From an uncultured bacterium (GTDB lineage Bacteria; Hydrothermota; Tepidihabitantia; SM23-42; JAOAFX01): a DNA stretch of 64,000 nucleotides. Positions 11,410-26,616 of the stretch are shown in pieces (positions within the stretch are counted from its first letter, which is position 1; every line of letters begins with the position of its first letter). The stretch covers positions 173 through 64,172 of the forward strand of contig CAYQKL010000003.1 of the NCBI GenBank assembly GCA_964418185.1, read 5' to 3'. The notes beneath the pieces were generated by a model that was not told the origin of the DNA, ran no database searches, and was given only the letters and a program-made list of their open reading frames with translations. A program made the translations under genes and the position numbers.

Positions 11410-11417
11410 AAATAGAG

Positions 11418-11558: not shown

Positions 11559-12968
11559 TTGACTGTTTTCCATTTCTGGCTATTATTTTTTGTGGAAATC
11601 ACCTTTATTGGTGCAACCAGAACAGTTACCGGGTCAATGCATCTATTTGAATACAATAAGAAAGAGTTTCTTTTTGAGTGTGGTCTTTATCAGGGGCATC
11701 GGGCAGAAGCAGAAAGGATAAATAGAATATTTCCCTTCAAACCAAAGGAGATAGAGTTTGTAATCCTTTCCCATGCCCATCTTGACCATTCAGGAAATCT
11801 CCCTTCCCTGATAAAAAGAAATTTTCGTGGGGATATCTATTGCACTCCAGCAACCAGAGACATCGCTGAACTACTGCTTCTTGACTCAGCACACCTCCAG
11901 GAGAATGACATTGCATTCTTTAATAAAAAACAGCGCAAGGCAGGACTTCCTACAAAGGAGCCTTTATATACAGTTGAAGATGCAGAGGATACATTAAAAT
12001 ATTTTAAGACCATCAATTACCACAATAAGTTTGAACCAGTTGATGGACTATCAGTGATTTTCTATGACGCAGGCCATATCCTTGGATCAGCCCAGATCTT
12101 GATTGAATATGACGACAGAAGAATTCTTTTCACCGGAGACCTCGGCAGGAATAATATGCCTATAATCAGGGATCCAGAGATACCAGAGGATATTGACTAT
12201 TTGATTTTGGAATCCACATACGGAAGTAGAATTCACAGTTCATTTGAACAGATGACCGATGAATTGAAACGGATAATCCTTGAAGGTAAAGAGAAGAAGA
12301 GCAAGATAATAATACCAACATTTGCCGTGGAAAGAACCCAGGTTCTTGTGACAATGTTAAAGCGACTCTATGAAGATGGGGTTATAAAGAATATTCCGAT
12401 ATATATTGATAGCCCACTCGCAACGAGTGTCACTCAGGTCTTTACCCGACATCCAGAGTGTTTTGATGAAGAGACTTACAAGAAATTCATAAAAGACGAA
12501 CCATTTGATTTTTCTGGGATAAATTATATAAAAAATATAGAAGAGTCAAAATCCCTGAACGAAAAAGATGGCCCGATGATTATCATCTCTGCATCAGGGA
12601 TGTGTGAAGGCGGCAGGGTATTACACCATCTCATACATTCCATAGAAGACGAGAATAATATAATCATTCTCACCGGATTCCAGGCATCAGGCACCTTAGG
12701 CAGAAAGATTCTTGATGGTTATAAGGAAGTTTTCATCTTTGATACAAAATTCTATGTGAATGCAAAGATCTATTTTATGGCAGGACTCTCTGCCCATGCA
12801 GACAGCAATGATCTGATTGAATTTGTACGGTCAATAAAAAATGGGCGTTTGAAAAAAGTCTTTTTAATCCACGGTGAGATCACTGAAGCAGTGGCATTGA
12901 AAGAAAAAATAGAATCCCTAAATATAGAGACCGAAATTCCCGAATCAATGACGAGTGTGGTCTTATGA
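11559..12968 (+). CDS. MBL-fold metallo-hydrolase with beta-CASP/RNA-specificity domain (RNase J-like ribonuclease)
   Basis: HAHLDHSGNLP (HxHxDH), a beta-CASP region and the C-terminal RMBL motif GLSAHAD. The true start may be the GTG at 11592, where homology begins (EITFIGA). Confidence 0.75.
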   Translation: MTVFHFWLLFFVEITFIGATRTVTGSMHLFEYNKKEFLFECGLYQGHRAEAERINRIFPFKPKEIEFVILSHAHLDHSGNLPSLIKRNFRGDIYCTPATRDIAELLLLDSAHLQENDIAFFNKKQRKAGLPTKEPLYTVEDAEDTLKYFKTINYHNKFEPVDGLSVIFYDAGHILGSAQILIEYDDRRILFTGDLGRNNMPIIRDPEIPEDIDYLILESTYGSRIHSSFEQMTDELKRIILEGKEKKSKIIIPTFAVERTQVLVTMLKRLYEDGVIKNIPIYIDSPLATSVTQVFTRHPECFDEETYKKFIKDEPFDFSGINYIKNIEESKSLNEKDGPMIIISASGMCEGGRVLHHLIHSIEDENNIIILTGFQASGTLGRKILDGYKEVFIFDTKFYVNAKIYFMAGLSAHADSNDLIEFVRSIKNGRLKKVFLIHGEITEAVALKEKIESLNIETEIPESMTSVVL

Positions 12969-13636
12969 AAAAAAGGATAGTTGTAATAGAAGACGACCAG
13001 GCGATACTTGATTTAGTAATTTATAATCTACAAAAGAATGGCTTTCTGACTCAAGGATTTACCAATGGTTATGATGGGTTAAATTTTCTTCTAAAAAATC
13101 CCTCAGACCTGCTGATACTGGATTTAATGCTTCCAGATATTGATGGATTTGAACTCTGCAAAGAATTAAAGAACCAGGAGAAGACAAAAAGTCTACCGAT
13201 AATCATACTCACTGCAAAGACTGAAGAGGCAGACAGGATTCTTGGTCTGGAATTAGGTGCAGACGACTATATTATAAAACCATTCAGCCCAAGGGAACTT
13301 GTGGCAAGGGTTAAGGCAGTATTGCGCCGATTGAAAACAACCGAATCAGAAGAATTATATAGATTTCAGGAGCTAACCGTTGATCCAAATAAATACAAAG
13401 TTTATTTCAAACAGCAGGAGATTGAGTTGACTGCAACTGAATTCAGCATTCTTCTTAATTTGATAAAACATCCAGGTAGGGTTTATACAAGGGATAACCT
13501 TCTTGATGCCCTTGACAAAACAATCCTTGACCGTAATATTGATGTCCATATCACAAACTTGAGAAAAAAACTCGGACCTGGGGGCAGGTTTATTAAGACG
13601 ATCAGGAGTGTTGGTTATAAACTGGATGCAGAATGA
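12965..13636 (+). CDS. OmpR/PhoB-family response regulator (receiver + winged helix)
   Basis: Receiver-domain residues D..D..K followed by a C-terminal winged helix. In an operon with a PhoR-like kinase, and pst genes lie in the same window. Confidence 0.85.
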   Translation: MKKRIVVIEDDQAILDLVIYNLQKNGFLTQGFTNGYDGLNFLLKNPSDLLILDLMLPDIDGFELCKELKNQEKTKSLPIIILTAKTEEADRILGLELGADDYIIKPFSPRELVARVKAVLRRLKTTESEELYRFQELTVDPNKYKVYFKQQEIELTATEFSILLNLIKHPGRVYTRDNLLDALDKTILDRNIDVHITNLRKKLGPGGRFIKTIRSVGYKLDAE

Positions 13637-14880
13637 CATATATAATAATCATAATTCTCATACTCATCACCATTTTTTTGTTGATAAGGTTAAACATAAC
13701 AGATAAAAAACTAAAAGAGATTGTAAATTACACAACTGAGTTATTAAATGGCAATTATACACATCGCATTATAGAAAAAGAGAAGGGGAACTTTGCTATA
13801 CTGATAGAAAATTTGAATACCCTTGCTGAAAAACTGGAGGCAAGGAGATTGGACTGGGAGGAGAAAGATATTCTACTGGATATCCTTTTTGAAAATATAA
13901 AAGAAGGATTGGTAATAACAAAAAAGGATGGAGAAATCATAGAATTCAATAGCAGGATAAAAGATATATTTCCGATGACCCCTTTCCAGCCTGGAAGGAC
14001 GATTCAGGAATTATGGATAAACAGGAGTTTTATTGAATTCAGTACAAGTAAACCTGAACCAAGAAGGATTGAATCATTAGAATTGGATATTCCGGAGATG
14101 GGAAAATCCTTTTTAATATCACGATTTTATGTTGAAAAAAATCAACTGATTTTCTATCTCTTCAATGACATAACCGATTCAAAAAACTTAAAGCGGATAA
14201 AGTCAGAGTTTATTACAAACCTATCCCATGAAATACGCACACCACTAACTGCAATAAAAGGTTATCTTGAGGCAATAGAAGAACCAGACATAAATAAAGA
14301 AGATAGAAAGAAATTTTTAAAGATTGTGCGGGAAAATATTGATCGATTAACGAATATCGTCTCTGATTTGCTTTTGCTTTCTGATATTGAAAGGCAGGAA
14401 AGAAAATTAAAGATAGAAAAGATTGATCTAAATGAACTTGCCAGCGAAGTCATACTATTATTTCGCAGAACTGCTGAAAACAAGGGTATTCAACTGGAAT
14501 TTTTGCCATCAAAGATACCAGAATATTATGGCGATCGTTTCCTGCTTCAGCAATTATTAATCAATTTAGTGAGTAATGCGGTCAGGTTCACTGAAAAGGG
14601 TAGGGTTGAGGTCAGTATCAATTTTGAGAATGGAAGGTTTTATATCACGGTCTCAGATACAGGTATTGGAATTCCATCTGATGAGATCCCAAGGATATTT
14701 GAAAGATTTTATACAGTTGATAAATCAAGGTCGCGGACCCAGGGAGGGACCGGTCTTGGTCTATCAATTGTCAAGCATATTGTCCAGCTGCACCAGGGTG
14801 AGATAAAGGTTGAAAGCAAACTGCGTGAAGGCTCAAAATTTACCGTTATTTTACCTGCAATCCAATCCCCATCATCTTAA
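13633..14880 (+). CDS. Sensor histidine kinase (TM, PAS-like, HisKA, HATPase_c); PhoR-like
   Basis: H-box SHEIRTPLTAIKGYLE. N, G1 and G2 boxes VSDTGIGIP...GGTGLGLSIV. Confidence 0.8.
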   Translation: MTYIIIIILILITIFLLIRLNITDKKLKEIVNYTTELLNGNYTHRIIEKEKGNFAILIENLNTLAEKLEARRLDWEEKDILLDILFENIKEGLVITKKDGEIIEFNSRIKDIFPMTPFQPGRTIQELWINRSFIEFSTSKPEPRRIESLELDIPEMGKSFLISRFYVEKNQLIFYLFNDITDSKNLKRIKSEFITNLSHEIRTPLTAIKGYLEAIEEPDINKEDRKKFLKIVRENIDRLTNIVSDLLLLSDIERQERKLKIEKIDLNELASEVILLFRRTAENKGIQLEFLPSKIPEYYGDRFLLQQLLINLVSNAVRFTEKGRVEVSINFENGRFYITVSDTGIGIPSDEIPRIFERFYTVDKSRSRTQGGTGLGLSIVKHIVQLHQGEIKVESKLREGSKFTVILPAIQSPSS

Positions 14881-14916
14881 TTTTTCCCCACCAATCTGCC
14901 AAGTATCGTGACGGAT

Positions 14917-14957
14917 GCGTGGTGGACTGTACCTACAAGTCCACCGTGGCACTTCCT
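14917..14957. terminator. Hairpin between the convergent histidine-kinase and T9SS-cargo genes
   Basis: CGTGGTGGACT-gtacctaca-AGTCCACCGTG imperfect inverted repeat. Confidence 0.3.
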
Positions 14958-15038
14958 GGAATAGGGACTTCACTCCAATATTGAATGTCCCTAATGCACG
15001 TCCTAATGACAAAATGATTTTGTAGGAACAATTCCCAT

Positions 15039-15485
15039 TTAATGGAGTAGAATTATCTTATCAGTTTCTGCTCTACCATCAAATTCAACCCGCACAAAAT
15101 ATATACCACTTGGCACTGTCTTACCCCGTTCATCCCTTCCATCCCATATAAAAGTAAAATCACCTGATGACTTCGCTTCTTTTATCATCCGGATAAGCTG
15201 TCCTGTAACAGAATAAATTTTGAGTGAAAACTCGCCTGGTTTCGGAAATTGATAACGAAGTTCAACCATTCCTTGGGCTGGATTGGGTAAGACAAAAGTT
15301 GAAAATCTTTGAGATACTATATTACGTTGCTCCTTAATGGATGAACTTGAATGATTATCCGTAGAAAATTCCCAAACTGCAAAGGCAGATAGAACAACCT
15401 TAGGAAAAGAGAGACGTCTTATACTCAATTCAATCTCCCCATTTTGATAAGCTTCCGGGCTCACAAAAAACCTCTCAACTACCAT
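15039..15485 (-). CDS. Fragment 3 of a secreted multidomain protein: linker + T9SS C-terminal sorting domain (Por_Secre_tail)
   Basis: CTD signature FVLPNPAQGMVELRYQF...IYSVTGQLIRMI...WDGRDERGKTVPSGIYFVRVEF..KIILLH. It is in frame with the upstream ORF across a single TAA at 15546-15548. Confidence 0.7.
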   Translation of the reverse strand: MVVERFFVSPEAYQNGEIELSIRRLSFPKVVLSAFAVWEFSTDNHSSSSIKEQRNIVSQRFSTFVLPNPAQGMVELRYQFPKPGEFSLKIYSVTGQLIRMIKEAKSSGDFTFIWDGRDERGKTVPSGIYFVRVEFDGRAETDKIILLH

Positions 15486-15545
15486 CTTTCTCCGTGGTAA
15501 ATTGACAGTTTTTATCAGCGAGTCATCGATCGCAATATCTTGGTT

Positions 15546-17078
15546 TTAGATTCCATTACTCTCATTCTGATAAAAGACTAAACCAACCTGATAATTCTTC
15601 TTTGGGTCTAATCCAGTAATTCTATACTTCAGACAATTGGTATCATAGTCAACATTCTTTTCAAAACCAGAGCCGTAGATAATATAGCCAGTTCGCTTTT
15701 CCACAAATACCGTGGGTTCTTTTTCACCTAAATCAAAGGCATATAAAGGAATTGGATTTGAACGGAATGAAGAAACAGGAAAGATTTTAATTTCGTATAT
15801 CCAGCTCCAATATTTCCCATTGGTGTAATAGGTCTGGATTTTTGTATATGAAGGATACCATCGCTCCCAGATGAGATGAATTAAATCACCAGCAACACTC
15901 AAAGAGGGATTCTTCCCAACCCCTACTTGAAATGGTGTTGTCCAATTGCCAAGATTATCCCGCTGCAAATACATTATTGCTCCATTTTTCTCATAAACAA
16001 TATGCAGACTACGGTCTGAAGATTTAATCCCAATTGGACCGATACCATAACCAACATAAGTATCAAGGTCTATAACATTCTCCAGACTTTCTGGCATTGT
16101 TTGGGTATAGAATTTACCAATCTTTAGTTTATTATTCCCTTCATCGTCATAGGTATTAAAGACCACCCAACCAGTATCAAGCGGGTCAATAGCAAAAGAG
16201 ACAGAGAGAATGGAATCGTGGGTTTCATAGATGACCTCCTCATTCCAGAAATCAGTCCTATTACGAGCATAATTGATTGTGTAGGTCAATGTTTCCTGGG
16301 CAGCAGAATCAGGAACGCCCAATGTGCCTATGTGGCAAACTTTTAGTTTTTTTGTCGAATCTGTATCTATTGCTGGTTGCCAGCCATAATCAATCTTCTT
16401 GGCGTTGGACCAGCTTATTCCATAATCAGTACTTGTGGCACACCAGATAGCTGATTGATTTGTCCAGGCTAAACAACCATTCCCTCCTGGGTCAAATACT
16501 ACCCCCCTTCCAGTATTGACTCCAGTAGCCATTGTACAATTTGAAGAGAAAGGTGGAATCTGACACGTAACAATATCTGAGCGGATACTTTCCTGCCCAC
16601 TGCTTCGCCGTGCCTTTACATAATATGAATAAATTTTGCCTACAGTTACACTATTATCAATATAAGTTGTATCCGGCACATTCCCGGCAATCATCTCATA
16701 ATTATGATTTGGATGGATTCTGCGATAGACATTGTAACCGGTCACACCACTTGCCGGCGAAGAGCCCCAGACCAATTGTACTGACGCCCTTTGTGAACCA
16801 AACTGTATAATTATCATAAATGTTGGTCTGGGACCAAACCCATAATAAGCATCTATTCCGTTATCTATTCCATAAGCGATTTTATCTTTAATTCCACTTA
16901 GATTGTCTTTTAATTGAAACCATTGACCATTAGTCACGGTATCATGTGTGACAAACGCGCCTTCGGCTACGCAAGCAGGACATTTTGCTTTTACTAACAC
17001 TTCGTAATTTTTTTGCTTTAACCCTCGATTATGTGCATGGGGCAAGTTTGAAATCATATTAAACATTTGTGTGTTCAC
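15546..17078 (-). CDS. Fragment 2 of the same gene: C-terminal half of an Amidase_3 domain + FN3-like + BNR/sialidase-like beta-propeller region
   Basis: NRGLKQKNYEVLVKAKCPACVAEGAFVTH matches the C-terminal part of Amidase_3 (RGvKq..f.VL....P.vLvE.gFisN). An FN3-like GVTGYNVYRR follows. Separated from fragment 1 only by an in-frame TAG. Confidence 0.6.
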   Translation of the reverse strand: MNTQMFNMISNLPHAHNRGLKQKNYEVLVKAKCPACVAEGAFVTHDTVTNGQWFQLKDNLSGIKDKIAYGIDNGIDAYYGFGPRPTFMIIIQFGSQRASVQLVWGSSPASGVTGYNVYRRIHPNHNYEMIAGNVPDTTYIDNSVTVGKIYSYYVKARRSSGQESIRSDIVTCQIPPFSSNCTMATGVNTGRGVVFDPGGNGCLAWTNQSAIWCATSTDYGISWSNAKKIDYGWQPAIDTDSTKKLKVCHIGTLGVPDSAAQETLTYTINYARNRTDFWNEEVIYETHDSILSVSFAIDPLDTGWVVFNTYDDEGNNKLKIGKFYTQTMPESLENVIDLDTYVGYGIGPIGIKSSDRSLHIVYEKNGAIMYLQRDNLGNWTTPFQVGVGKNPSLSVAGDLIHLIWERWYPSYTKIQTYYTNGKYWSWIYEIKIFPVSSFRSNPIPLYAFDLGEKEPTVFVEKRTGYIIYGSGFEKNVDYDTNCLKYRITGLDPKKNYQVGLVFYQNESNGI

Positions 17079-17108
17079 TTGATAAGCAAAAATAGAATCC
17101 GCAGTATC

Positions 17109-17504
17109 CTAATACCAAGTTTCAGTTCCATGGGCTGCTCTGCTACTATCTCCATTATTATGAATAGAAACAAGAACATCACAGGTGTCATAATTATTAG
17201 TAGTAGGATTCGGTAGTTCCCCGTTTGCCATTTTTGCCCTGGCTTCTAACGAGAGTTTTGTGGTGTCGGTCAAATCATCAACTCTTGTCATAATAACACT
17301 GTAGCCTAATGTCCATGTTAGATCATCATAACAAACATCAGCAATATAAAGATTGAAATTTTTTTCATAGGGACCATTTACCCCATAATTTTTATTGACA
17401 GCCCCTGGATCTCTACCACCGTGCCCCGGGTCAAGGCATACCTGGATACGACCAGCAAACAATAGATTAAACAAAAGTAGTAATGGAATCAATTTTATTT
17501 TCAT
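17109..17504 (-). CDS. Fragment 1 of the same gene: signal peptide + N-terminal half of N-acetylmuramoyl-L-alanine amidase (Amidase_3)
   Basis: MKIKLIPLLLLFNLLFAG signal peptide. CLDPGHGGRDPGA and SIHNNGDSSRAAHGTETWY match Amidase_3 motifs. RBS AAGGAGG upstream. The ATGA overlap with the upstream PD40 gene indicates translational coupling. Confidence 0.7.
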   Translation of the reverse strand: MKIKLIPLLLLFNLLFAGRIQVCLDPGHGGRDPGAVNKNYGVNGPYEKNFNLYIADVCYDDLTWTLGYSVIMTRVDDLTDTTKLSLEARAKMANGELPNPTTNNYDTCDVLVSIHNNGDSSRAAHGTETWY

Positions 17505-18394
17505 TTTGCCCCCCTCCTTTTCAATCTCAAAATAACACATTCCCTATCGCCACCACCAGTAATAGAATCTGGTATTTCTTTAAATCTTTCTACTACTATG
17601 CTTTTGCCGTCTGGTAACCAGCGCACGAGAATTTCAGGCTGGAGGGTATAGGTAATTTGGGTTTTCCCTGTTCCATCTTTGTTGATAACGAAGACCTCTG
17701 AAGCAAGTGGAGACACCTCAATATGCCCTGATGCTTTCGTAGCAACAATATATGTAAGCATCTTACCGTTAGGTGACCAAGAAAAATTCCAGGGCTCGAA
17801 AAACAATGTGCGGTCAAGCACTTTTGTCTCATTACTTTCAGCGTCGAAAATAGAAAGTACCCAAAAATCCTTGGTTAGACCTTCTGATTCCACATATTTC
17901 CCTGCCAGATAATTCGCTTTTGGAGACCAACAAGCAGAAATCCCAAAAGATGGAGCTGGTTTTAATTCATCAGTTTCAATATTGTAAATATAGGTACCAC
18001 CATACCCATAAACCTGTCTGCCATGAAAAAGTTTCTTTGCTGGAACCCACATACTGAAGGAAAGGAATTTACTGTCTGAAGATAGCTTCATATCATAGCC
18101 ACCCTTAATGAATCTTTTTTCTTTCTTTGTTTTACCATCTTTTAACAAAATTCCATTATCTGGTCCTCTATCACCAACTATTTCAGCAATTAATGAACTA
18201 TCGGGCGAACAGACAGTAAACAGTGTTTTCCCGAACCAGTAATCAAAGCCCTCGCCCTCAATTTCTTTTGTCATCTCCACTGATGCTTTTTCGATTCTCT
18301 CCAGCATCAGGTCTTCTGCCCTTACTCCTTCTAAAAATCCTTGGGCAAAGAGGGGTAAAAGGCTTATTGCGATTAGGGTTATTATGTTTTTCAT
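17501..18394 (-). CDS. Periplasmic PD40/TolB-like beta-propeller protein
   Basis: Signal peptide MKNIITLIAISLLPLFAQG and repeated WSPNGK / WLPDGK blades. The ORF-track start at 18454 looks too long, since an RBS precedes the ATG at 18394. Confidence 0.6.
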   Translation of the reverse strand: MKNIITLIAISLLPLFAQGFLEGVRAEDLMLERIEKASVEMTKEIEGEGFDYWFGKTLFTVCSPDSSLIAEIVGDRGPDNGILLKDGKTKKEKRFIKGGYDMKLSSDSKFLSFSMWVPAKKLFHGRQVYGYGGTYIYNIETDELKPAPSFGISACWSPKANYLAGKYVESEGLTKDFWVLSIFDAESNETKVLDRTLFFEPWNFSWSPNGKMLTYIVATKASGHIEVSPLASEVFVINKDGTGKTQITYTLQPEILVRWLPDGKSIVVERFKEIPDSITGGGDRECVILRLKRRGAK

Positions 18395-18981
18395 TTTGCC
18401 TCCTTTGCTCGGCATTGCCGAGCTTTTAATAAGTTTACCCATTGCCAAAAGCATTTCAATGGGTAATTTAAGAAGATCCTCTTTTGGTGCGGTCGTCTTT
18501 GAAAAGAAATTAATGAACGACTTAATAATCCGCGCAGAGTTATGGTAGGTAGTCGCTGATAATCCCCATCACAAGCATAGCCTATATAGGCAAAATTAAA
18601 AATTTATCAAGTGCAATGCTCAAAACCGCCTGATTTTACAAGGAATTGCGCAATTTCGACTCTTAAAATTGTAGCAAAAATTTGTAGTATATTTTCAAAA
18701 TTTTTTAGAAGCGATATAAAAATGTGGATAACCCCTAAACTTAATTTTGGAAAGACAAAATTTGGTGTCAGAAAGATATTGGCTTATGTTTACTCCCATC
18801 TTCCAACCTTTATTGCTATATCGATATATGTGCATATGTGCAATTGTTCAATGGTGCATAGATAATGTAACCAATCTCCACAAATATAAATTGTAGCAAT
18901 CAATTTGAAAATTCCACAATTGTCGAATTGATGAATAAATAAATTCATTGTCTGTTCTAAATAAAGCCGTAATGAATATAA

Positions 18982-20273
18982 TCATTCCAGATCAAATGGA
19001 ATTGCCCAAGCGGGTAAAAATCTTATCTGACAATTATCTATCTTTTCTACTTTATAGGTGTTCTTTGTTAAGATATAGCCTTTATCTACTGGATTTTCCT
19101 TTATAAATTTCCTGAAGGCATTAGAAATCTTGGGAGACCCACTCCATTTTACCTCAATGGGTATAATTCTATCTTCTCTTCTCAAAAGAAAATCAATCTC
19201 CTCACCTGCCTTTGTTCGCCAGTACCGCAACTCATCCATATCTCCAAGACACTGAAGAAGTGAGACATAAACACCAGATTCTATCAGCAACCCGGAATTA
19301 GCACGGAGTGATAGATTCTGGAATGTTTTCAATGTGTAATTTAAAAATCCAGTGTCAAGAAAGAATAATCTTGGCATCTTTATTATCTCTTTGGCACGAC
19401 TTTTTGCCCAGGGTCTCAATGTTTTTATAATAAAAGTCTCTTCAGGGATTGAAAGATAGCGCATAACCGTATTCCGGGCAATTCCGACTTCCTTGGATAT
19501 CTCAAGGCTTTTTAATAGACCACCATTCTGGGTGGCAAGGAATTCAACAAATGAACTGAATTTGACAAAGCTCTCTTCAGCCACAAGGCTGCGAATCTCT
19601 TTTTCAAGATATGTGGTTTGAATTTCTTTTAGGACCCTTACTTTCATTTCATATTCCGGGGTAAGCGCGACCTTGGGATAACCCCCATAAATAATATATT
19701 CTTCATAAGCAGAATTGATTTGTGAGAGAAAGGGTTCTGGAATTGGTTTACTCTTATATTGTTTTATAATTCTTAGTAACTCTACTCTACTTGTAAATTC
19801 CAGGAATTCCAAAAATGAAAGGGGATACAGAATAAAGACTACCTTCCTACCGGTCAAAGGTTCAGCCATTTTTAATTTCAATTTTACACTTGAAGAGCCA
19901 CTCACAATAAATTTCAATTTCGGGTAATGGTCATGGATATAATTTAAAATACTTGTGCAATTTTCCATATAATGAATCTCATCAAAGAAAACATATGTAG
20001 TTTCTTTACTTTCCTTTCGCCAGCCCATTGCATTGAGATATGAAATAACATCGCGCACAGTCTTCAGTGCATTTCTGATTTCAATATCCTCAAGGTCAAT
20101 AAAATAGGTTATTTTGCCTGCAGACTCAAGTTCTGTCTGAAGCAATCTTAAGACCGATGTTTTACCTACCTGGCGGGCACCGAGAATTACGATTATCTCA
20201 TCCCGCTCAAGCCATTTTTTATCTTTTTGATTATATCCCTATACAAATAGTTTAAACTTTTTGACACTTCCAT
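18982..20273 (-). pseudogene. AAA+ ATPase of the DUF4143 family, interrupted by a -1 frameshift in an A6 tract near the 5' end
   Basis: P-loop GARQVGKT lies upstream of the ORF-track start. The N-terminus MEVSKSLNYLYRDIIKKIK is encoded in another frame starting at ATG 20273 and joins the main frame at the A-run 20215-20220. A TTGACA-N16-TAAAAT promoter sits immediately upstream. Confidence 0.55.
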
Positions 20274-20394
20274 ATTGCAATTTTATATATAAAATTACTG
20301 ATGTCAAAGGCAATCTTCTATAATTTTTCTTGTGCCGCTAAATTTTGCAACATTTTTTAGGCAGGCGGAAAGATGTTGCAAAGTTGTCAGCACT

Positions 20395-20545
20395 GGAAGT
20401 GCCTCCTACAAAGCTCGTTAATCGTTGGACGGTGTCGCAGCCCGTATCGTCATACGTCAATGGTAATTCGAATATGATAGAGAAAAAAATCCCCTTTTGT
20501 CCCCGTTTTGGAGAGAGAGAGTAAGGGGGATTGGATTTATTGGAA
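20395..20545. repeat. Copy 1 of a ~100-150 bp interspersed/tandem repeat family
   Basis: Shares CCTCCTACAAA..CGTTAATCGTT..GGTGTCGCAGCCCGTA..AATTCGAAT with copy 2 directly downstream. Confidence 0.5.
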
Positions 20546-20549
20546 CTTG

Positions 20550-20700
20550 AAACCCTCCTACAAAAAATCGTTAATCGTTATGCGGTGTCACAGCCGTATA
20601 AAAATAAATCCGAAATTCGAATCCGCCATACTGGGTGGTGGACGAAATCCGAAACAAATTCAAATCCGCCACCCAGTTTGGCGGACTAAATGACAATTTC
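20550..20700. repeat. Copy 2 of the repeat family. Includes the stem-loop CCGCCAC-ccagttt-GGCGG followed by ACTAAAT.
   Basis: Tandem with copy 1. Its 3' half matches copy 3 at 39350-39440 (GGTGTCGCAGCCCGTA ... AATCCGCCAC..GTGGCGGACTAAAT). Confidence 0.5.
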
Positions 20701-20994
20701 TAAATTATTGCCTACACACGGGACTAAAGTCCCTACTCCATTCTTGCGGCTATTAGGCATAGATGATGGTTTAGTAATTGGGCATAGTCAATTGTTAACG
20801 GTGCACGGTAAACGTTTCACGAATTTGTCCACTTTACCTTATTTTACCCTATTCGCTCATTCTCCCTTTTGCCCTCTTTAGCCTTTTTGAGCCTTCATTA
20901 GCCTTTTTCTTTTTTGCCTTCAATTGTCCCAAATTGCCTTTTTTGCTACTCTCCTATCGCTACCTTAGAACCCATTTATCAATGGATTCTGGCC

Positions 20995-21048
20995 TTAACA
21001 ATCTTTTAACATTCGCTTAATCAAGGTTTAACATCAGAGAAGTATAAT
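20995..21048 (+). promoter_or_regulatory. Candidate Pho box: four TTAACA-like direct repeats at exact 11-bp spacing, immediately upstream of a TATAAT -10 element
   Basis: TTAACA at 20995, 21006 and 21028, and TTAATC at 21017. The -10 TATAAT is at 21043-21048. There is no -35 element. Lies upstream of the porin-pstSCAB-phoU operon. Confidence 0.45.
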
Positions 21049-21067
21049 ATGGTGTGAAAGGAGGCTT

Positions 21068-22087
21068 ATGGGTTCAATAACCAAATCCCATAAATTAATA
21101 CTAAAAATGCTGGTAGCAACAGCATTGATGTTGATGTGCTTCTCTGCGGGCTACGCAGATGCACAGATATACGGATATTTCTGGATGAGATATACCTATG
21201 AAAATCCGACCACGCCTGAAGTGGATGAGAATGAACACGAATTTGCCATAGAAAGGGGATATGTCCGTTGGAAGACAAAGACCGAGCCGGTTTCATTCTC
21301 AGGAACCATTGATATAACAAATAAAGCAAAGGCAACAAATGCCTCAGACTGGAACATCCGTCTAAAGTATGCCCAGGCTGACTGGCTATTGCCTTATATT
21401 GGAAAGACAATCCCTGATGCAAAACTGATGATTGGGCTCCAGAAGGTCTATTTTGGAATGATGGATATCTGGGAATATCCTGTGATTGAGAAGAACCTTG
21501 AGGAAGTGGAGAAAAAGACCAACAGTGCAGATTTAGGATTGGGATTATATGGTCTATTGCCCGGTGGCTATGGTGAATTTGCCCTTCAGACCTTTAATGG
21601 CAATGGCTATTCAAATGTTACAGAGAATAATACAAATAAGGCAATCTGTGGTAATCTTTCTTTAATTCCAATCTCAGGGGTTATGCTCAAGGGTTCTTTA
21701 TGGCAGGCAAAGGCACCTCAATTGATTGATTCAGTCCTTACCCAGGTTGATGAGAATAGATATGTGGGGCTTATCCAGTTTAAATATGGTCCAGCAACTC
21801 TGATTGGTGAGGTTCTTTTGACAAAAGACCATGAAACCGAGGGCTTTGGCTATTCGGGTTTTGTTGAATTTGCCATAAATAAGTATTTGAGCCTATTGGG
21901 CAGATATGATATGTGGGATAAAGATGAGTCAGAAGAGAACAATTCTCATACAAGAATTATAGCCGGGATTAATTATGCGATCGCTAATAATCTTTTAACC
22001 CAGGTGAATTATCAATTAAAATCCTATGAAGACCCGGAAGAAGATGCTGAAGATAAGATAATGGTGCAATTTAAGTATTCTTATTAA
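21068..22087 (+). CDS. Outer-membrane beta-barrel porin; possibly a phosphate-selective porin
   Basis: Signal peptide and alternating amphipathic strands. C-terminus ...QFKYSY ends in an aromatic residue, which is typical of OM beta-barrels. First gene of the pst operon. Assigning it to the OprO/P family is inference only. Confidence 0.5.
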   Translation: MGSITKSHKLILKMLVATALMLMCFSAGYADAQIYGYFWMRYTYENPTTPEVDENEHEFAIERGYVRWKTKTEPVSFSGTIDITNKAKATNASDWNIRLKYAQADWLLPYIGKTIPDAKLMIGLQKVYFGMMDIWEYPVIEKNLEEVEKKTNSADLGLGLYGLLPGGYGEFALQTFNGNGYSNVTENNTNKAICGNLSLIPISGVMLKGSLWQAKAPQLIDSVLTQVDENRYVGLIQFKYGPATLIGEVLLTKDHETEGFGYSGFVEFAINKYLSLLGRYDMWDKDESEENNSHTRIIAGINYAIANNLLTQVNYQLKSYEDPEEDAEDKIMVQFKYSY

Positions 22088-22100
22088 TTAAGGAGGTTTT

Positions 22101-22901
22101 ATGAATACTTTTAAAAGAGTAATGGTCCTTGGTTTAGGTCTATGCATTGGACTCTTTGCCCAGCAATTGACCCTCCAGGGTTCAACGACCGTTCTTCCAA
22201 TCGCTCAGGCAGCCGCAGAATCATATATGGAAAGCCATTCTGATGCTGATATTATGGTCAGAGGTGGTGGTTCAGGAACCGGTATTGCTGCATTGATTGA
22301 TAATTCTACTGATATTGCAATGGCATCAAGGCCAATGAAGACAAAAGAGGTTAAACAGGCAAGGGAAAAGGGAATTAATCCGGTCGGAACCGTAATCGCC
22401 CTGGATGGAATTGCCGTAATCGTCAATCGTAGCAACCCAATAAATGAGATATCCCTTGAGGACTTAAAAAAGATCTATACTGGAAATATCTCAAACTGGT
22501 CAAATCTTGGTGCAAAGGGTAAGATTGTAGTAGTTTCAAGGGATGCGGCATCAGGCACATTTGAGGTCTTCAATGAAAAGGTTCTTGAAGGTGCAAAACT
22601 GACTGAGAGTGCATTAATGCAGGCTTCAAACCTTGAGGTTGCAAGAACTGTTGAACAGACCCCTGGTGGTATCGGTTATGTTGGACTTGGTTATATCAGT
22701 GATAAGGTAAAGGTGCTGAAGGTAAACGGTGTTACACCATCTGAACAGACAGTCAGAAATAGTTCTTATCCCATTGCCCGACCGCTATATCTATATACAA
22801 ACGGCAATCCGTCAGGAATGAAGAAAGAATTTATAGATTTTGTCCTCTCTACTGATGGTCAAAAGATAGTCCGTGATAACGGATTTGTGCCAGTTAAATA
22901 G
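22101..22901 (+). CDS. pstS: Phosphate ABC transporter substrate-binding protein PstS
   Basis: Signal peptide and PBP-like motifs TVLPIAQAAAESY, GGGSGTGIAALIDNSTDIAMASRPMK. Confidence 0.85.
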   Translation: MNTFKRVMVLGLGLCIGLFAQQLTLQGSTTVLPIAQAAAESYMESHSDADIMVRGGGSGTGIAALIDNSTDIAMASRPMKTKEVKQAREKGINPVGTVIALDGIAVIVNRSNPINEISLEDLKKIYTGNISNWSNLGAKGKIVVVSRDAASGTFEVFNEKVLEGAKLTESALMQASNLEVARTVEQTPGGIGYVGLGYISDKVKVLKVNGVTPSEQTVRNSSYPIARPLYLYTNGNPSGMKKEFIDFVLSTDGQKIVRDNGFVPVK

Positions 22902-23072
22902 AAATCGGTGGCTCATGATCGGTGGAATAGCAAGTAGGAAATTAAAGACCCATATTTTTCGTGGGTTATCCCTATTTGCTATCCACCGATTTTTTTGCTC
23001 CTTTAGAAATTCCCTTTTTTTGCGGATGGTGGAAAAAATTACCCCGAATTCATTCATACATGAGCGATTAAG

Positions 23073-23960
23073 ATGAAGCGCCAGATAATCGAAAACTTCA
23101 TAAAGATACTGCTTTTGATTGTCGCAATGAGCGCACTTGTTTTTCTTGCGGGTATTGTGGTAGTCTTGATTACACAGGGAACACCAATTCTTAAATATGT
23201 TAGTATAAAAGATTTTTTCTTCGGAATGAGATGGTATCCAACCCATGGAGAACCAGAATTCGGTATTTTGCCAATGATTTACGGCTCATTGATTGTTACG
23301 ATAGGTGCCTTAATCTTTGCAACTCCATTAGGTATTATGTCTGCGCTTTACATTGCCGAAGTCGCACCACACTGGCTAAAGGAAACCTTGAAACCCATTA
23401 TTGAATTACTTGCTGGTATCCCTTCGGTTGTGTATGGTTTATTTGGTGCACTTTTCATCGCACCTCTTGTCCAGAAAACTTTCAATCTACCAACAGGATT
23501 AACTGCTTTTTCTGCAGCAATAGTACTGGGAATAATGATTCTACCAACAATCACAAGCATTGTTGAAGATGCCCTGACCGCAATTCCCAAAGAATACAGT
23601 GAGGCAGCACTTGCTCTTGGTGCAACAAAATGGGAAACAATGACAAAGATAATTTTACCTGCAGCATCAAGTGGTATTACTACTGGTATCGTCCTTGGTA
23701 TGGGCAGGGCGATTGGTGAGACAATGGCGGTATTGATGGTCGCAGGTGGTTCTCCGAACATTGTCTTTTCTTTCTTAAAACCGGTCCGGACTATGACCGC
23801 AACGATTGCGGCTGAAATGGCTGAGACCGTCGTGGGCAGTGAACATTACTATGCCCTTTTTGGCATTGCGATAGTCTTATTCTTATTGACTATGATATTC
23901 AATATTCTTGCTGAGCATATATCTTCTCGTTTCCATAAACGTTTTACTGCGATGAAATAA
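23073..23960 (+). CDS. pstC: Phosphate ABC transporter permease PstC
   Basis: Six TM segments and the ABC permease EAA-like loop EAALALGATKWETMTKIILP. Confidence 0.85.
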   Translation: MKRQIIENFIKILLLIVAMSALVFLAGIVVVLITQGTPILKYVSIKDFFFGMRWYPTHGEPEFGILPMIYGSLIVTIGALIFATPLGIMSALYIAEVAPHWLKETLKPIIELLAGIPSVVYGLFGALFIAPLVQKTFNLPTGLTAFSAAIVLGIMILPTITSIVEDALTAIPKEYSEAALALGATKWETMTKIILPAASSGITTGIVLGMGRAIGETMAVLMVAGGSPNIVFSFLKPVRTMTATIAAEMAETVVGSEHYYALFGIAIVLFLLTMIFNILAEHISSRFHKRFTAMK

Positions 23961-23961
23961 T

Positions 23962-24894
23962 ATGGCTAATAGTTCTTTTGAAATCGCCAACATTTTGAAT
24001 TATGTCACTAAAAATAATACAATTAAGAATATGTCTTTAAAAGAAAAGAGAAGACTTATTCAAAATATTGGAATATCTTTATTGTTCGTTGCATTATTGA
24101 TAAGTGCAGTCTTCTTGTTTATTGTTGTAATATTCATATGCCTTCAGGGATTGAAGGTCATAAACCTTGAATTTCTCTTCAGTATGCCTAAAAAATCAAT
24201 GACTGCAGGTGGGATACTTCCAGCAATATTGGGAACATTTTATCTTGCCTTAGGTTCGGTTATATTTGCCCTGCCAATAGGTGTTCTTTCCGGGATATAT
24301 CTGAACGAATATGCAAAGGATAGTTTATTATTGAGAATACTAAAAACTGGTATCAATAATCTTGCAGGTGTACCTTCTATTGTCTTTGGATTGTTTGGTC
24401 TGGCAATATTTGTGAAATTCTTTGGTTTTGGTGTTTCTATTCTCTCTGGTTCATTAACCCTGGGCATAATGATTTTACCTGTTATTATAAGCACCACAGT
24501 TGAGGCATTAAAGACTGTTCCAGATTCATTTCGTGAAGCAGCCTACGGTGTTGGTGCAACAAAATGGCAGACCATAAATGGGATTGTTCTGCCTGCGGCA
24601 TTGCCCGGAATCCTTACCGGCGTAATTCTCGCTATTGGCCGTGCTGCAGGTGAGACCGCACCGATTTTGTTTACGGCGGCAGTTTTCTTCAGTAAGAAAT
24701 TGCCCAATTCTATACTTTCACCGGTCCAGGCACTACCCTATCATATCTATGCACTGATGACCGAAGGCACATACCCGGATAAACAGATCCCCATTGCTTA
24801 TGGTTCAGCACTCGTTCTTTTAATGTTAGTCTTAGGAATGAATCTGGTCGCAATTATCATAAGAAGAAGACAGAGAAAGAAGAGATTATGGTAG
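23962..24894 (+). CDS. pstA: Phosphate ABC transporter permease PstA
   Basis: Permease fold with [20 protein letters not shown]. Confidence 0.85.
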
Positions 24895-25700
24895 AAATTG
24901 CATTAAAGAATGAAATAAAAGAAAATACCAATGAATGCAAGATGCAGAATACAAGTATAATTGTCAAAGACCTGAATGTATTTTTTGGAAAAAATCACGC
25001 CCTCAAAAACATAAATTTAAATATCTACTGCAATAGCATTACTGCAATCATTGGTCCTTCAGGTTGTGGCAAAAGCACATTTATTCGTTGTTTGAATCGT
25101 ATGAATGATATAATTCCATCAGCAGAGATTAAAGGAGAGATCTGGTTTGATAATGTCAACATCTATGACCCGATGTATGATGTATATGATTTGAGAAAGA
25201 AAATCGGGATGGTTTTTCAAAAACCAAATCCATTTCCGAAAAGTATCTTTGAAAATTTAGCATTTGGTCTGAAGATACATGGGACTACCGACAAAAGAGA
25301 GATTGAAGAAAGGGTGGTTAATGCGCTAAAAGCAGCCGCTTTGTGGGATGAAGTTTCTGACCGTTTACACGATTCCGCTTTTTCTCTTTCTGGTGGTCAA
25401 CAGCAAAGACTCTGTATTGCACGAACCCTTGCAATAGAACCAGAAGTGATATTATTTGATGAACCCTGTTCAGCACTGGACCCTATATCTACATCAAAAA
25501 TAGAAGAGTTGATGATAAGATTAAAAGAAAAGTATACTATTGTCATCGTCACCCATAATATGCAACAGGCAGCAAGGGTCTCGGATTGGACCGCATTCTT
25601 ATATATTGGGGAGTTGATTGAATATAATCAGACTCCAAAAGTGTTCACCAATCCGAAAGACCCAAAAACCGAGGCATATATAACTGGAAGATTTGGATAA
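24888..25700 (+). CDS. pstB: Phosphate import ATP-binding protein PstB
   Basis: Walker [13 protein letters not shown] signature [15 protein letters not shown], Walker B ILFDEP. Confidence 0.9.
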
Positions 25701-25736
25701 GGATTTATAATGCATAAAAGTAATAGGAGGTAATTT

Positions 25737-25952
25737 ATGGTAATCGAAGATAAAATGGTGGAAAACAGGCAACAAAATAAAAAAATTATTGAATATTACA
25801 AGCATAAGGAAAAACTAAATCGGATAAAACCTAAGATTTTGATTCGTCATAAAAAAATTATTGAACAGATTTTGAAAGAAAATAAAAATGAAAATCTGGA
25901 TGTGAAATTGAACAAAATACAATTAGACTTATTTGGCGAAAAATTGAATTGA
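25737..25952 (+). CDS. Small lysine-rich hypothetical protein (71 aa) between pstB and phoU
   Basis: AGGAGG RBS 8 nt upstream. Its stop overlaps the phoU start (TGAcATG). No recognisable domain. Confidence 0.4.
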   Translation: MVIEDKMVENRQQNKKIIEYYKHKEKLNRIKPKILIRHKKIIEQILKENKNENLDVKLNKIQLDLFGEKLN

Positions 25953-25953
25953 C

Positions 25954-26616
25954 ATGCTGAAAGAAAAGACAGAAAAATTAAAGATAAATATAATAAGATT
26001 TGCGAGCATTGTGGAAAATATGCTAAAGGATGCGGAAACATCTGTATATACCCGCGACCATGCGGTTGCCAATAATGTAATAACCCACCTCGAACAATTG
26101 GCTAATCGCATTGAAATTGAAAATGAAACACAGTTTATTGAATTTCTTGCATTATTTCAACCAGAGGCAAGTGATTTAAGAACTGTAGTCTCTTTACTAA
26201 AGATAAATAATAATCTGGAACGAATTGCTGACCACTGCGTAAACATTGCTCAGCGTATTTCTTCATTTAATTCAATAAATAATTTCGTAAAATTAAAGGT
26301 AATGTTTAGCACTATTCAGCAGATGTTTAAGGAGACATTCAGTGCGTTTATCAATAATGATACCAGTAAGTTATTAAAAATTATAGAACAGGACAAAATA
26401 GTTGATGAAAAATTAAGGGAATTGACCGGTGAAGTAATTGATACCCTGGATAATTGTCATACAATGTCAAATAATGCAATTTCAGCATTATTAATCGGCC
26501 GGGACCTTGAACGTATCGGAGATTTGACCGTCAATATCTGCGAAGATATTATTTATATGACTAAGGGCGATGTCATAAAACACAGCCTGTATATTACCTC
26601 AGAATCAAGTTTGTAA
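25954..26616 (+). CDS. phoU: Phosphate signalling complex protein PhoU
   Basis: Two PhoU repeats with the conserved E..LER.aDH motifs (LERIADHCVNIA; LERIGDLTVNI). Confidence 0.85.
   Translation: MLKEKTEKLKINIIRFASIVENMLKDAETSVYTRDHAVANNVITHLEQLANRIEIENETQFIEFLALFQPEASDLRTVVSLLKINNNLERIADHCVNIAQRISSFNSINNFVKLKVMFSTIQQMFKETFSAFINNDTSKLLKIIEQDKIVDEKLRELTGEVIDTLDNCHTMSNNAISALLIGRDLERIGDLTVNICEDIIYMTKGDVIKHSLYITSESSL

What the first reader, a model, noticed from the sequence alone, without database searches (positions are those of the whole stretch)
20995..21048. Pho-box-like array: four TTAACA direct repeats at 11-bp periodicity replacing the -35 of the porin-pstSCAB-phoU promoter
The hexamers TTAACA / TTAACA / TTAATC / TTAACA start at 20995, 21006, 21017 and 21028, exactly 11 bp apart. 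A consensus TATAAT -10 lies 9 bp after the last repeat, and there is no -35 hexamer. This is the same architecture as enterobacterial Pho boxes, where 7-bp direct repeats spaced by 4 bp substitute for the -35. A PhoB/PhoR-like two-component pair is encoded at 12965-14880. The repeat unit is not CTGTCAT, so it would define a lineage-specific PhoB recognition motif.
Basis: partly seen in the sequence, partly recalled or inferred. Interest (0 to 1): 0.5.

Follow-up and report, generated by a model that had tools for sequence, protein, structure and literature searches.

The report
Pho box upstream of porin-pst operon
Four TTAACA-like repeats spaced 11 bp apart in front of a phosphate-uptake operon of an uncultured WOR-3 bacterium are almost certainly a real phosphate-starvation operator, but it is the type already known from Bacillus and cyanobacteria, not a new lineage-specific motif.

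Summary
TTAACA/TTAACA/TTAATC/TTAACA start at 20995, 21006, 21017 and 21028. TATAAT follows 9 nt later, there is no usable -35, and an RBS and ATG follow. The downstream genes are an OprO/P-like porin, pstS, pstC, pstA, pstB and phoU.

The array is not chance. It is unique in the window, with 0 of 100 shuffles matching. It scores 37.6 bits with a PWM built only from other genomes, against a shuffle maximum of 17.6. It is conserved in 15 of 17 related WOR-3/Stahlbacteria loci: TTAA cores carry about 1.8 bits per column and spacers about 0.5. The 9-nt distance to the -10 is fixed in all 16 promoters.

The two loci that lack the array have a porin homologue not followed by pst. In 10 loci the orthologue of the window's PhoB/PhoR-like pair lies directly upstream of the array. 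In the window about 6 kb separates them.

The claim of a lineage-specific motif fails. Four TT(A/T/C)ACA-like repeats at 11-bp periodicity is the published B. subtilis PhoP box. CTTAACCT repeats with 3-bp linkers is the cyanobacterial SphR box. The same array type precedes pst genes in unrelated metagenome contigs.

No second site was found in about 70 kb of this genome, so the regulon beyond pst is untested. This is a new member of a known kind.

The parts
20994..21035 (+). Pho-box array. It has four 11-bp direct-repeat units with hexamer cores at 20995, 21006, 21017 and 21028 (TTAACA, TTAACA, TTAATC, TTAACA). If transcription starts about 7 nt after the -10, the array spans roughly -60 to -22.
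   Evidence: Sequence. Unique in the window with 0/100 shuffles. 37.6-bit PWM score against a shuffle maximum of 17.6. Conserved in 15 of 17 related loci. TTAA cores carry 1.81-1.87 bits per column and spacers 0.50-0.54. DNA homology among close relatives begins at the C just before hexamer 1.
21043..21048 (+). -10 hexamer TATAAT, 9 nt after the last repeat core. No -35 partner.
   Evidence: A -10-like hexamer sits at exactly the same 9-nt distance in all 16 aligned promoters, with 1.47-1.59 bits per column.
21059..21065 (+). Ribosome-binding site AAGGAGG in front of the porin ATG at 21068.
   Evidence: The motif GAAAGGAGGCTTATG is conserved in close relatives.
21068..22087 (+). First gene of the operon: an outer-membrane beta-barrel, probably an OprO/OprP-type phosphate-selective porin (339 aa).
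   Evidence: On its own it gives only a weak OMP_b-brl hit. Many homologues at 55-69% identity carry precomputed PF07396 Porin_O_P.
22101..22901 (+). pstS, the phosphate-binding protein.
   Evidence: TIGR02136, 277 bits against a cutoff of 206.6. PBP_like_2.
23073..23960 (+). pstC, a permease.
   Evidence: TIGR02138, 311 bits against a cutoff of 196.
23962..24894 (+). pstA, a permease.
   Evidence: TIGR00974, 302 bits against a cutoff of 193.
24888..25700 (+). pstB, the ATPase.
   Evidence: TIGR00972, 405 bits against a cutoff of 343.
25954..26616 (+). phoU.
   Evidence: TIGR02135, 153 bits against a cutoff of 130. No convincing terminator between 21900 and 26900.
12965..13636 (+). OmpR-family response regulator, the probable PhoB/PhoP that binds the array.
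   Evidence: The best NCBIfam hit is PhoB TIGR02154, at 236 bits and below the 296 cutoff. The DNA-binding domain alone hits E. coli PhoB structures best, at E 2e-16 against 3e-13 for the next family. D53, T83 and K105 are present. Orthologues lie immediately upstream of the array in 10 loci. The recognition-helix core is invariant among orthologues.
13633..14880 (+). Histidine kinase, the probable PhoR.
   Evidence: HisKA plus HATPase_c. The best NCBIfam hits are PnpS (324 bits, cutoff 400) and PhoR (268 bits, cutoff 334). It is syntenic with the regulator and the pst promoter in relatives.
14881..20993 (.). A block of about 6.1 kb separating phoR from the Pho box in this genome. It holds minus-strand genes (15039-20145: T9SS-tail protein, amidase fragments, PD40 protein, DUF4143 ATPase) and an 850-nt repeat-rich spacer. 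It is context and not part of the operator.
   Evidence: It is absent from L003, L017 and 8 other loci, where the kinase gene ends 60-750 nt before the array.

Best explanation
The array is a PHO box, the operator of a PhoB/PhoP-type response regulator. It controls a sigma-70-type promoter that has a good -10 but no -35.

Inferred mechanism, by analogy with E. coli PhoB and B. subtilis PhoP:
- Under phosphate limitation the kinase (13633-14880) phosphorylates the regulator (12965-13636).
- Two regulator dimers bind head-to-tail to the four 11-bp repeat units, all on one face of the helix.
- The promoter-proximal subunit, centred near -25 to -35, contacts sigma region 4 and substitutes for the missing -35.
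- This switches on the phosphate porin, the PstSCAB transporter and PhoU.

Shown here: the repeats exist, they are non-random, and they are under purifying selection at the TTAA cores. Their distance to the -10 is fixed. They travel with pst and not with the porin gene, and they are ancestrally adjacent to the PhoBR-like genes.

Inferred: binding by this regulator, activation rather than repression, and induction by low phosphate.

The recognition sequence is the TTAACA / CTTAACCT type already known from Firmicutes and cyanobacteria.
For: (1) Sequence and statistics.
(2) Phylogenetic footprint: 15 of 17 WOR-3/Stahlbacteria loci, with porins only 51-86% identical, keep four TTAAYN units in 11-bp phase. 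TTAA is intact in 63 of 64 units. Information content is 1.8 bits per column for the cores, 0.5 for the spacers and 0.2-0.3 for the upstream flank. Homology starts exactly at the first unit.
(3) The spacing to the -10 is invariant at 9 nt in all 16 promoters, and there is no -35.
(4) Natural negative control: L008 and L010 have a porin homologue flanked by an oxidoreductase gene and recA/recX/alaS instead of pst, and they have no array.
(5) The orthologous regulator-kinase pair lies immediately upstream on the same strand in 10 loci. The regulator's DNA-binding domain is closest to PhoB. The receiver-only PDB hit with the best score is B. subtilis PhoP 1MVO. The best NCBIfam hits are PhoB and PnpS/PhoR.
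(6) Specificity: in 178 kb scanned on both strands, arrays of 3 or more units occur only at these pst promoters, plus one adjacent divergent site in L018.
(7) The motif equals known PHO boxes (PMC11870197, PMC1906773). The architecture and the sigma-contact mechanism are described in PMC4415409.
(8) In a sample of unrelated metagenome contigs carrying the pattern, 4 of 20 downstream ORFs are pst genes, P about 8e-8.
Against: - There is no experimental binding, transcription-start or expression data. WOR-3 is known here only from metagenome-assembled genomes.
- The regulator and kinase score below the NCBIfam equivalog cutoffs for PhoB and PhoR. Full-length PDB hits do not single out PhoB.
- No second array was found in about 70 kb of this genome, not even upstream of the operon containing the regulator genes. 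A regulon is therefore not demonstrated.
- In L012 and L013 the array is present but no regulator-kinase pair lies next to it.
- The regulator's alpha2-alpha3 loop, the one that contacts sigma in E. coli PhoB, is 3 residues shorter in the window's subclade. The activation contact may differ.
Confidence: 0.85

Rival explanations
1. The array is an operator for some other winged-helix or OmpR-family regulator, or for a repressor, that is unrelated to phosphate sensing. The neighbouring PhoBR-like pair would then not be its regulator.
For: The regulator and kinase do not reach the PhoB/PhoR equivalog cutoffs. OmpR-family members generally bind 10-11-bp direct repeats. Full-length PDB hits are led by BaeR, MtrA and RpaA. 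L012 and L013 keep the array without an adjacent regulator pair. A site covering -60 to -22 could in principle repress.
Against: The target operon is the most conserved Pho-regulon member, Pst (PMC4415409). The motif is identical in type to experimentally defined PhoP and SphR boxes (PMC11870197, PMC1906773). The DNA-binding domain alone is closest to PhoB. The pair is adjacent to the array in 10 loci. The absence of a -35 together with a perfect -10 is the signature of an activator-dependent promoter.
Confidence: 0.08
2. The array is a protein-independent promoter element. Phased TTAA steps could act as curved DNA or an UP-like element. Alternatively the repeats themselves could form a weak constitutive sigma-70 promoter, with TTAACA at 21006 as the -35, a 17-nt spacer, and TAACAT at 21029 as the -10.
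For: The promoter scan lists TTAACA-17-TAACAT as a 9/12 match. TTAACA is 5/6 identical to TTGACA. AT-rich elements phased at about one helical turn can bend DNA (general knowledge).
Against: Conservation is base-specific (TTAA plus Y plus A/C) and is not a general AT-richness. The spacers are free to become GC-rich, for example in L007 and L014. The strongly conserved -10 is the TATAAT 9 nt downstream and not TAACAT. The array co-occurs with a dedicated regulator pair. Pairs of units alone are at chance level.
Confidence: 0.04
3. The array is a chance low-complexity feature or a short 11-bp satellite with no function.
For: Perfect 11-bp TTAAC-containing tandem satellites are common in metagenomes. 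Between 61 and 96 of 120 sampled pattern hits were of this kind. The window is AT-rich at about 37-40% GC.
Against: The spacers differ between units, so this is not a satellite. There were 0/100 shuffles and a 37.6-bit score against a shuffle maximum of 17.6. The array is conserved at the same position in 15 related genomes while its flanks diverge.
Confidence: 0.01

Closest known systems
Bacillus subtilis PhoP core binding site (PHO box of the pstS, phoA, phoD and tuaA promoters)
   Same: It is described as four TT(A/T/C)ACA-like hexamers with 11-bp periodicity (PMC11870197, citing Eder et al. 1999). Window hexamers 1, 2 and 4 are TTAACA, an exact fit. There are also four units here, the -35 is also absent, and a pst operon is also the target. 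The related Lacticaseibacillus pstS box is four (T/A)T(T/G)ACA units with 4-6 bp spacers (PMC11870197).
   Different: The host is a diderm member of the uncultured WOR-3 lineage, and the operon begins with an outer-membrane porin. The WOR-3 consensus keeps TTAA strictly and allows C/T at position 5 and A/C at position 6. Unit 3, TTAATC, deviates from the Bacillus consensus at two positions. No binding data exist. The -60 to -20 location of the Bacillus core site is from my memory of Eder et al. and Liu & Hulett; I could not read those papers.
Cyanobacterial SphR (PhoB) Pho box
   Same: It has at least three tandem 8-bp repeats of consensus CTTAACCT separated by 3-bp linkers, an 11-bp period, upstream of pst and phoA operons (PMC1906773). 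The WOR-3 unit consensus is (C/T)TTAA(C/T)(A/C)(A/T). Unit 1 in most relatives is CTTAACCA, a 7/8 match.
   Different: There are four units here rather than three. Position 7 is more often A than C in units 2 and 4. The regulator is from a different phylum.
Escherichia coli PhoB Pho box (CTGTCAT type)
   Same: The architecture and presumed mechanism match: 11-bp direct-repeat units, a position about 10 bp upstream of the -10 replacing the -35, head-to-tail binding of effector domains, and contact with sigma-70 region 4 (PMC4415409, PMC1906773). The window regulator's DNA-binding domain is most similar to E. coli PhoB structures 3T72, 1QQI and 1GXP.
   Different: The core sequence is TTAACA and not CTGTCAT. 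In the recognition helix the window protein has T-N where E. coli has R200-R201, and its alpha2-alpha3 loop is 3 residues shorter. E. coli pst has no porin gene in the operon.
Pseudomonas OprO/OprP phosphate-selective porins (PF07396), members of the Pho regulon
   Same: A phosphate-starvation porin co-regulated with high-affinity phosphate uptake. Homologues of the window's first gene carry PF07396.
   Different: Here the porin is the first cistron of the pst operon itself. The window protein does not reach a Pfam threshold by itself. That oprP and oprO belong to the Pseudomonas Pho regulon is from my general knowledge and was not checked here.

Membership tests
PHO box (operator of PhoB/PhoP/SphR-type regulators) | Two or more direct repeats with an 11-bp (about one helical turn) period, conserved core plus variable spacer | tested here: met
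   Four units start at 20995, 21006, 21017 and 21028. Cores carry 1.8 bits per column and spacers 0.5 across 16 promoters.
PHO box (operator of PhoB/PhoP/SphR-type regulators) | Sits where the -35 should be, about 10 bp upstream of a -10 element, with no canonical -35 | tested here: met
   The last hexamer ends 9 nt before TATAAT. The best -35 candidates match only 1-2 of 6 positions. The 9-nt distance is invariant in 16 promoters.
PHO box (operator of PhoB/PhoP/SphR-type regulators) | Located upstream of phosphate-acquisition genes | tested here: met
   The downstream genes are the porin, pstS, pstC, pstA, pstB and phoU. The array is absent where the porin homologue is not linked to pst (L008, L010).
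PHO box (operator of PhoB/PhoP/SphR-type regulators) | The same motif recurs at several promoters of phosphate-starvation genes in the same genome (a regulon) | tested here: inconclusive
   Only about 70 kb of this genome was available. There is no second array and no other recognisable pho gene in it. One extra array lies upstream of an LMWPc/ArsC-like gene in L018.
PHO box (operator of PhoB/PhoP/SphR-type regulators) | Bound by the phosphorylated regulator; transcription induced by phosphate limitation | not testable with these tools
   This requires EMSA or footprinting and expression data.
Bacillus-type PhoP box | Four TT(A/T/C)ACA-like hexamers at 11-bp periodicity (PMC11870197) | tested here: met
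   Hexamers 1, 2 and 4 are TTAACA, an exact fit. Hexamer 3, TTAATC, has 2 mismatches.
Cyanobacterial SphR box | At least three 8-bp CTTAACCT repeats with 3-bp linkers (PMC1906773) | tested here: met
   The window units are CTTAACAA, TTTAACAT, CTTAATCA and TTTAACAT, each a 6/8 match. The lineage consensus is (C/T)TTAA(C/T)(A/C)(A/T).
Enterobacterial Pho box | Core CTGTCAT | tested here: not met
   The core here is TTAACA. The architecture is shared but the sequence is not.
PhoB/PhoP response regulator | Receiver domain with phospho-acceptor Asp plus a winged-helix Trans_reg_C effector domain | tested here: met
   PF00072 plus PF00486. D53, T83 and K105 are present.
PhoB/PhoP response regulator | Scores above the curated PhoB equivalog cutoff | tested here: not met
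   TIGR02154 is the best hit, but at 235.9 bits against a 296.2 cutoff. The DNA-binding domain alone is closest to E. coli PhoB.
PhoB/PhoP response regulator | Genetic linkage with phoR and with Pho-regulon genes | tested here: met
   The regulator gene overlaps the kinase gene (12965-13636 and 13633-14880). The orthologous pair lies directly upstream of the array and pst in 10 loci.
PhoR histidine kinase | HisKA plus HATPase_c with full-length similarity to PhoR/PnpS above the curated cutoff | tested here: inconclusive
   The domains are present. PnpS scores 324 bits (cutoff 400) and PhoR 268 bits (cutoff 334). These are the best hits, but both are below cutoff.
OprO/OprP phosphate-selective porin (PF07396) | Match to the Porin_O_P profile | tested here: inconclusive
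   The window protein gives only a sub-threshold OMP_b-brl hit. Many homologues at 55-69% identity have precomputed PF07396.

The most novel reading that the evidence does not exclude
In WOR-3 the phosphate response may be a minimal, self-contained cassette of (beta-CASP RNase)-phoB-phoR, one Pho box, and porin-pstSCAB-phoU. That cassette would have a single operator and no autoregulation of phoBR.

The TTAAC-type box shared by Firmicutes, cyanobacteria, WOR-3 and other lineages may be the ancestral bacterial Pho box, with CTGTCAT a proteobacterial derivative. Specificity would be set by the two recognition-helix positions that are R200-R201 in E. coli but T-N or K-H here.
Probability: 0.25. 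Interest if true: 0.35.

Novelty: new member of a known kind. Interest (0 to 1): 0.25.

Why it matters
It gives a well-supported regulatory site, and a probable regulator-operator pair, for a phylum-level lineage known here only from metagenome-assembled genomes. I found no paper describing Pho regulation in WOR-3. It adds a distant lineage to the set of bacteria using the TTAACA / CTTAACCT type of Pho box, which is useful for comparative work on how OmpR-family specificity evolves. It also supplies a PWM for annotating phosphate regulons in WOR-3/Stahlbacteria MAGs. It does not reveal a new mechanism or a new motif.

Tried and rejected
- TTAACA-N5-TTAACA as a stand-alone test. One hit against 0.7 expected, so it is not informative. 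Only arrays of 3 or more units are.
- Rfam on 20100-21150. Only chance-level miRNA and snoRNA hits with E above 0.5.
- Full-length regulator against PDB. This does not discriminate subfamilies, with BaeR on top. The DNA-binding domain alone was informative.
- A Pho box upstream of the operon containing the regulator genes (11410-11558), and anywhere else in the window, in 18 related loci and in 6 kb beyond the window. Nothing significant turned up except one site in L018.
- Extending the contig leftwards. The look-ups either found no record or returned contigs that do not pass the window's left end.
- The original Bacillus papers (PMC344424, PMC93612) are not held. A free-text search for TTAACA plus PhoP was swamped by 'phosphoprotein' hits. 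The consensus was taken from PMC11870197 instead.
My first satellite filter was too strict and discarded true pst promoters; it was relaxed. The 'covering ORF' column was faulty and I did not use it.
- A terminator search inside the operon found only two weak hits, both inside genes and fewer than in shuffles.

Full report
**1. Observation.**
The sequence is as described. TTAACA lies at 20995-21000, TTAACA at 21006-21011, TTAATC at 21017-21022 and TTAACA at 21028-21033. Nine nucleotides follow, then TATAAT at 21043-21048, AAGGAGG at 21059-21065 and ATG at 21068. The hexamers 16-18 nt upstream of the TATAAT match TTGACA at only 1-2 of 6 positions. The promoter scan pairs no -35 with this -10. 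It lists only a weak 9/12 alternative built from the repeats themselves: TTAACA at 21006, 17 nt, then TAACAT.

A single TTAACA-N5-TTAACA pair is at chance level, with 1 found and 0.7 expected. The four-unit array with up to 3 mismatches is unique in 64 kb and never arose in 100 dinucleotide shuffles.

**2. Genes.**
The downstream ORFs are pstS, pstC, pstA, pstB and phoU, all above their NCBIfam cutoffs. They are preceded by a 339-aa outer-membrane beta-barrel. Its homologues at 55-69% identity carry PF07396, the phosphate-selective porin O/P family, and come from candidate division WOR-3. No convincing terminator interrupts 21900-26900. Co-transcription is therefore plausible but not shown; there are gaps of 171 nt after pstS and 253 nt after pstB.

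The pair at 12965-14880 is an OmpR-family regulator plus a HisKA/HATPase kinase. Their best NCBIfam matches are PhoB (236 bits, cutoff 296) and PnpS/PhoR (324 bits with cutoff 400, and 268 bits with cutoff 334). The other candidate pair at 6800-8691 is TonB plus a PD40 protein and is not a two-component system.

**3. Phylogenetic footprint.**
A profile of 31 porin homologues retrieved 18 loci from WOR-3 and 'Stahlbacteria' MAGs. Of the 17 with upstream DNA, 15 have four TTAAYN units in 11-bp phase at the same place.

Aligned on the array, TTAA is intact in 63 of 64 units. The unit consensus is (C/T)TTAA(C/T)(A/C)(A/T)(T/A). The distance from unit 4 to a -10-like hexamer is 9 nt in all 16 promoters.

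| Region | All 16 promoters | Nine most divergent |
|---|---|---|
| TTAA cores | 1.87 bits/column | 1.81 |
| 5-nt spacers | 0.54 | 0.50 |
| Upstream flank | 0.23 | 0.32 |
| -10 hexamer | 1.59 | 1.47 |

(All values.)

Among the closest relatives, DNA homology begins exactly at the C before unit 1. Only L015 shares about 25 nt more.

A PWM built from 14 loci, excluding the window and its near-twin L015, gives the window array 37.6 bits. The maxima of 30 shuffles averaged 5.4 and peaked at 17.6. Nothing else in the window is significant. The best two-unit hit, at 18131 inside an ORF, scores 15.0, which equals the shuffle mean.

**4. Context as evidence.**
Synteny analysis shows that the orthologue of the window's regulator-kinase pair ends 60-750 nt upstream of the array, on the same strand, in ten loci: L003, L004, L005, L006, L007, L009, L011, L014, L017 and L018. 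In L003 and L017 it is preceded by the same beta-CASP gene as in the window.

In the window about 6.1 kb lies between the kinase stop (14880) and the array (20995). This block holds minus-strand genes at 15039-20145 and an 850-nt repeat-rich spacer. The adjacent arrangement predominates among the relatives, so the window's separation is probably derived.

The two loci without an array, L008 and L010, carry a porin homologue flanked by an oxidoreductase gene and by recA, recX and alaS, with no pst. The array therefore belongs to the pst promoter and not to the porin gene. In 178 kb scanned on both strands, arrays of 3 or more units occur only at these promoters. The one exception is a minus-strand site in L018 that faces a divergent LMWPc/ArsC-like gene.

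**5. The regulator.**
The protein has D53, T83 and K105. Full-length PDB hits are not discriminating: BaeR, MtrA and RpaA lead, and among receiver-only chains B. subtilis PhoP 1MVO is best. The DNA-binding domain alone hits E. coli PhoB effector-domain structures first (3T72, 1QQI, 1GXP), at E about 2e-16 against 3e-13 for the next family.

In that alignment the recognition helix reads DVHITNLRKKLGPGG, against DVHIRRLRKALEPGG in E. coli. V, H and the second Arg are kept. R200-R201 become T-N, and the preceding loop is 3 residues shorter.

Across ten WOR-3 orthologues the core D-V-H-I-x-x-L-R-x-K-L and the wing R..G-Y are invariant. Two subclades differ at the x-x positions. One has T-N with the short loop and a 415-aa kinase. 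The other has K-H with the long loop and a kinase of about 575 aa. That the changed residues account for TTAACA rather than CTGTCAT recognition is my inference and is not shown.

**6. Comparison with known systems.**
The PHO box is defined as 11-nt direct-repeat units. PhoB binds them head-to-tail and recruits RNA polymerase through sigma-70 region 4, and Pst is the most conserved regulon member (PMC4415409, section 4). In E. coli the boxes lie 10 bp upstream of the -10 (PMC1906773).

[quoted passage not shown] The Synechocystis SphR box is at least 3 tandem 8-bp CTTAACCT repeats with 3-bp linkers (PMC1906773). The window array is therefore a textbook Bacillus/cyanobacterial-type box. It shares architecture but not core sequence with the enterobacterial CTGTCAT box.

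**7.
More than half of these were perfect 11-bp satellites.

Of 20 substantial ORFs starting within about 160 nt downstream of non-satellite arrays:
- four are pst genes (L050 and L110 PstS, L041 a PstC-type permease, L053 PstB), only 29-56% identical to the window's proteins;
- two are beta-propeller proteins, one with a faint phosphoesterase (PF04185) match (L071, L082);
- three are TonB-dependent receptors;
- one is glnA and one is a histidine kinase;
- the rest are unrelated.

Four of 20 has a probability of about 8e-8 if pst genes make up 0.2% of genes. The array type therefore marks pst promoters well outside WOR-3. Within this genome, only about 6 kb beyond the window could be added, and it has no array. 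Enrichment at other pho genes of this organism remains untested.

**8. Verdict.**
The Pho-box interpretation and the assignment of the PhoBR-like pair are well supported by conservation, fixed geometry, synteny and a natural negative control, at a confidence of about 0.85. Binding, activation and phosphate dependence remain inferences by homology.

The novelty claim of a lineage-specific recognition motif is not supported. This is a new member of a known kind: an ordinary, cleanly conserved operator in an uncultured lineage. No paper on Pho regulation in WOR-3 was found.

Noticed in passing
window 14881-20993: In 10 related genomes phoR is followed directly by the Pho box and the porin-pst genes. 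Here about 6.1 kb intervenes: minus-strand genes for a T9SS-tail protein, a split amidase, a PD40 protein and a DUF4143 AAA ATPase, plus an 850-nt spacer. This looks like an insertion or rearrangement that split the phoBR-pst cassette.
   Followed up: partly
window 20146-20990: An unusually long, repeat-rich non-coding spacer. It has direct repeats at 20410-20442 / 20563-20595 (82% identical) and 20613-20648 / 20656-20691. It has a 21-nt inverted repeat at 20622-20642 / 20665-20685, which the scan also scores as a minus-strand terminator-like hairpin. A C/T-rich stretch with the repeat GCC(C/T)TC(T/A)TTAGCCTTTTT lies at 20871-20908. There is no Rfam match. Its function is unknown.
   Followed up: partly
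L015:3001-4089 and L017:2947-4035, compared with window 21068-22087: The porin is only about 51% identical in L015 and L017. The adjacent promoter is nearly identical in L015, and in both loci PstS, PstC and PstA are 77-94% identical. The porin gene seems to diverge or be exchanged much faster than the rest of the operon, perhaps because it is surface-exposed.
   Followed up: no
L018:1685-1720 (minus strand) and L018:1185-1682 (-): A second, three-unit TTAAC-type array (17.5 bits) lies back-to-back with the pst Pho box. It faces a divergent gene of the low-molecular-weight phosphatase / ArsC-type family (PF01451). This may be a second regulon member, or a link to arsenate handling.
   Followed up: partly
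L012:1084-2926 and L013:1309-2941: In these two genomes the beta-CASP gene is followed directly by the Pho box and porin, with no regulator-kinase pair between them. The regulator genes must be elsewhere or lost.
   Followed up: no
window 11559-12968: A beta-CASP / metallo-beta-lactamase (RNase J-like) gene overlaps the start of the regulator gene by 4 nt. It is conserved in that position in L003 and L017, so phoBR is probably co-transcribed with a ribonuclease-type gene. No Pho box lies upstream of it at 11410-11558.
   Followed up: partly
window 12965-13636, with orthologues in L003-L017 (alignment A2): There are two subclades of the regulator-kinase pair. The window type has T-N in the recognition helix, a 3-residue shorter alpha2-alpha3 loop and a 415-aa kinase. 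The other type has K-H, the longer loop and a kinase of about 575 aa. Both have the same DNA box downstream.
   Followed up: partly
L004:3-419 (-): A second, divergent pstS-like gene (37% identical to the operon's pstS) lies head-to-head with the regulator gene. No detectable array lies between them.
   Followed up: no
Metagenome loci L049, L055, L095, L071, L082, L024: Non-satellite TTAAC arrays in unrelated contigs also precede three TonB-dependent receptors with CarboxypepD_reg domains and a glutamine synthetase gene. They also precede two lactonase-type beta-propeller proteins, one of which has a faint phosphoesterase-family match (26.3 bits, no aligned stretch passing the threshold). These may be Pho-regulon members in other phyla. 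PhoP binding at glnA is reported for Lacticaseibacillus in PMC11870197.
   Followed up: no
Metagenome loci L019-L138 in general: Perfect 11-bp tandem satellites containing TTAAC are common in metagenome contigs. They dominate any exact-pattern search for this box, so such searches need a satellite filter.
   Followed up: yes
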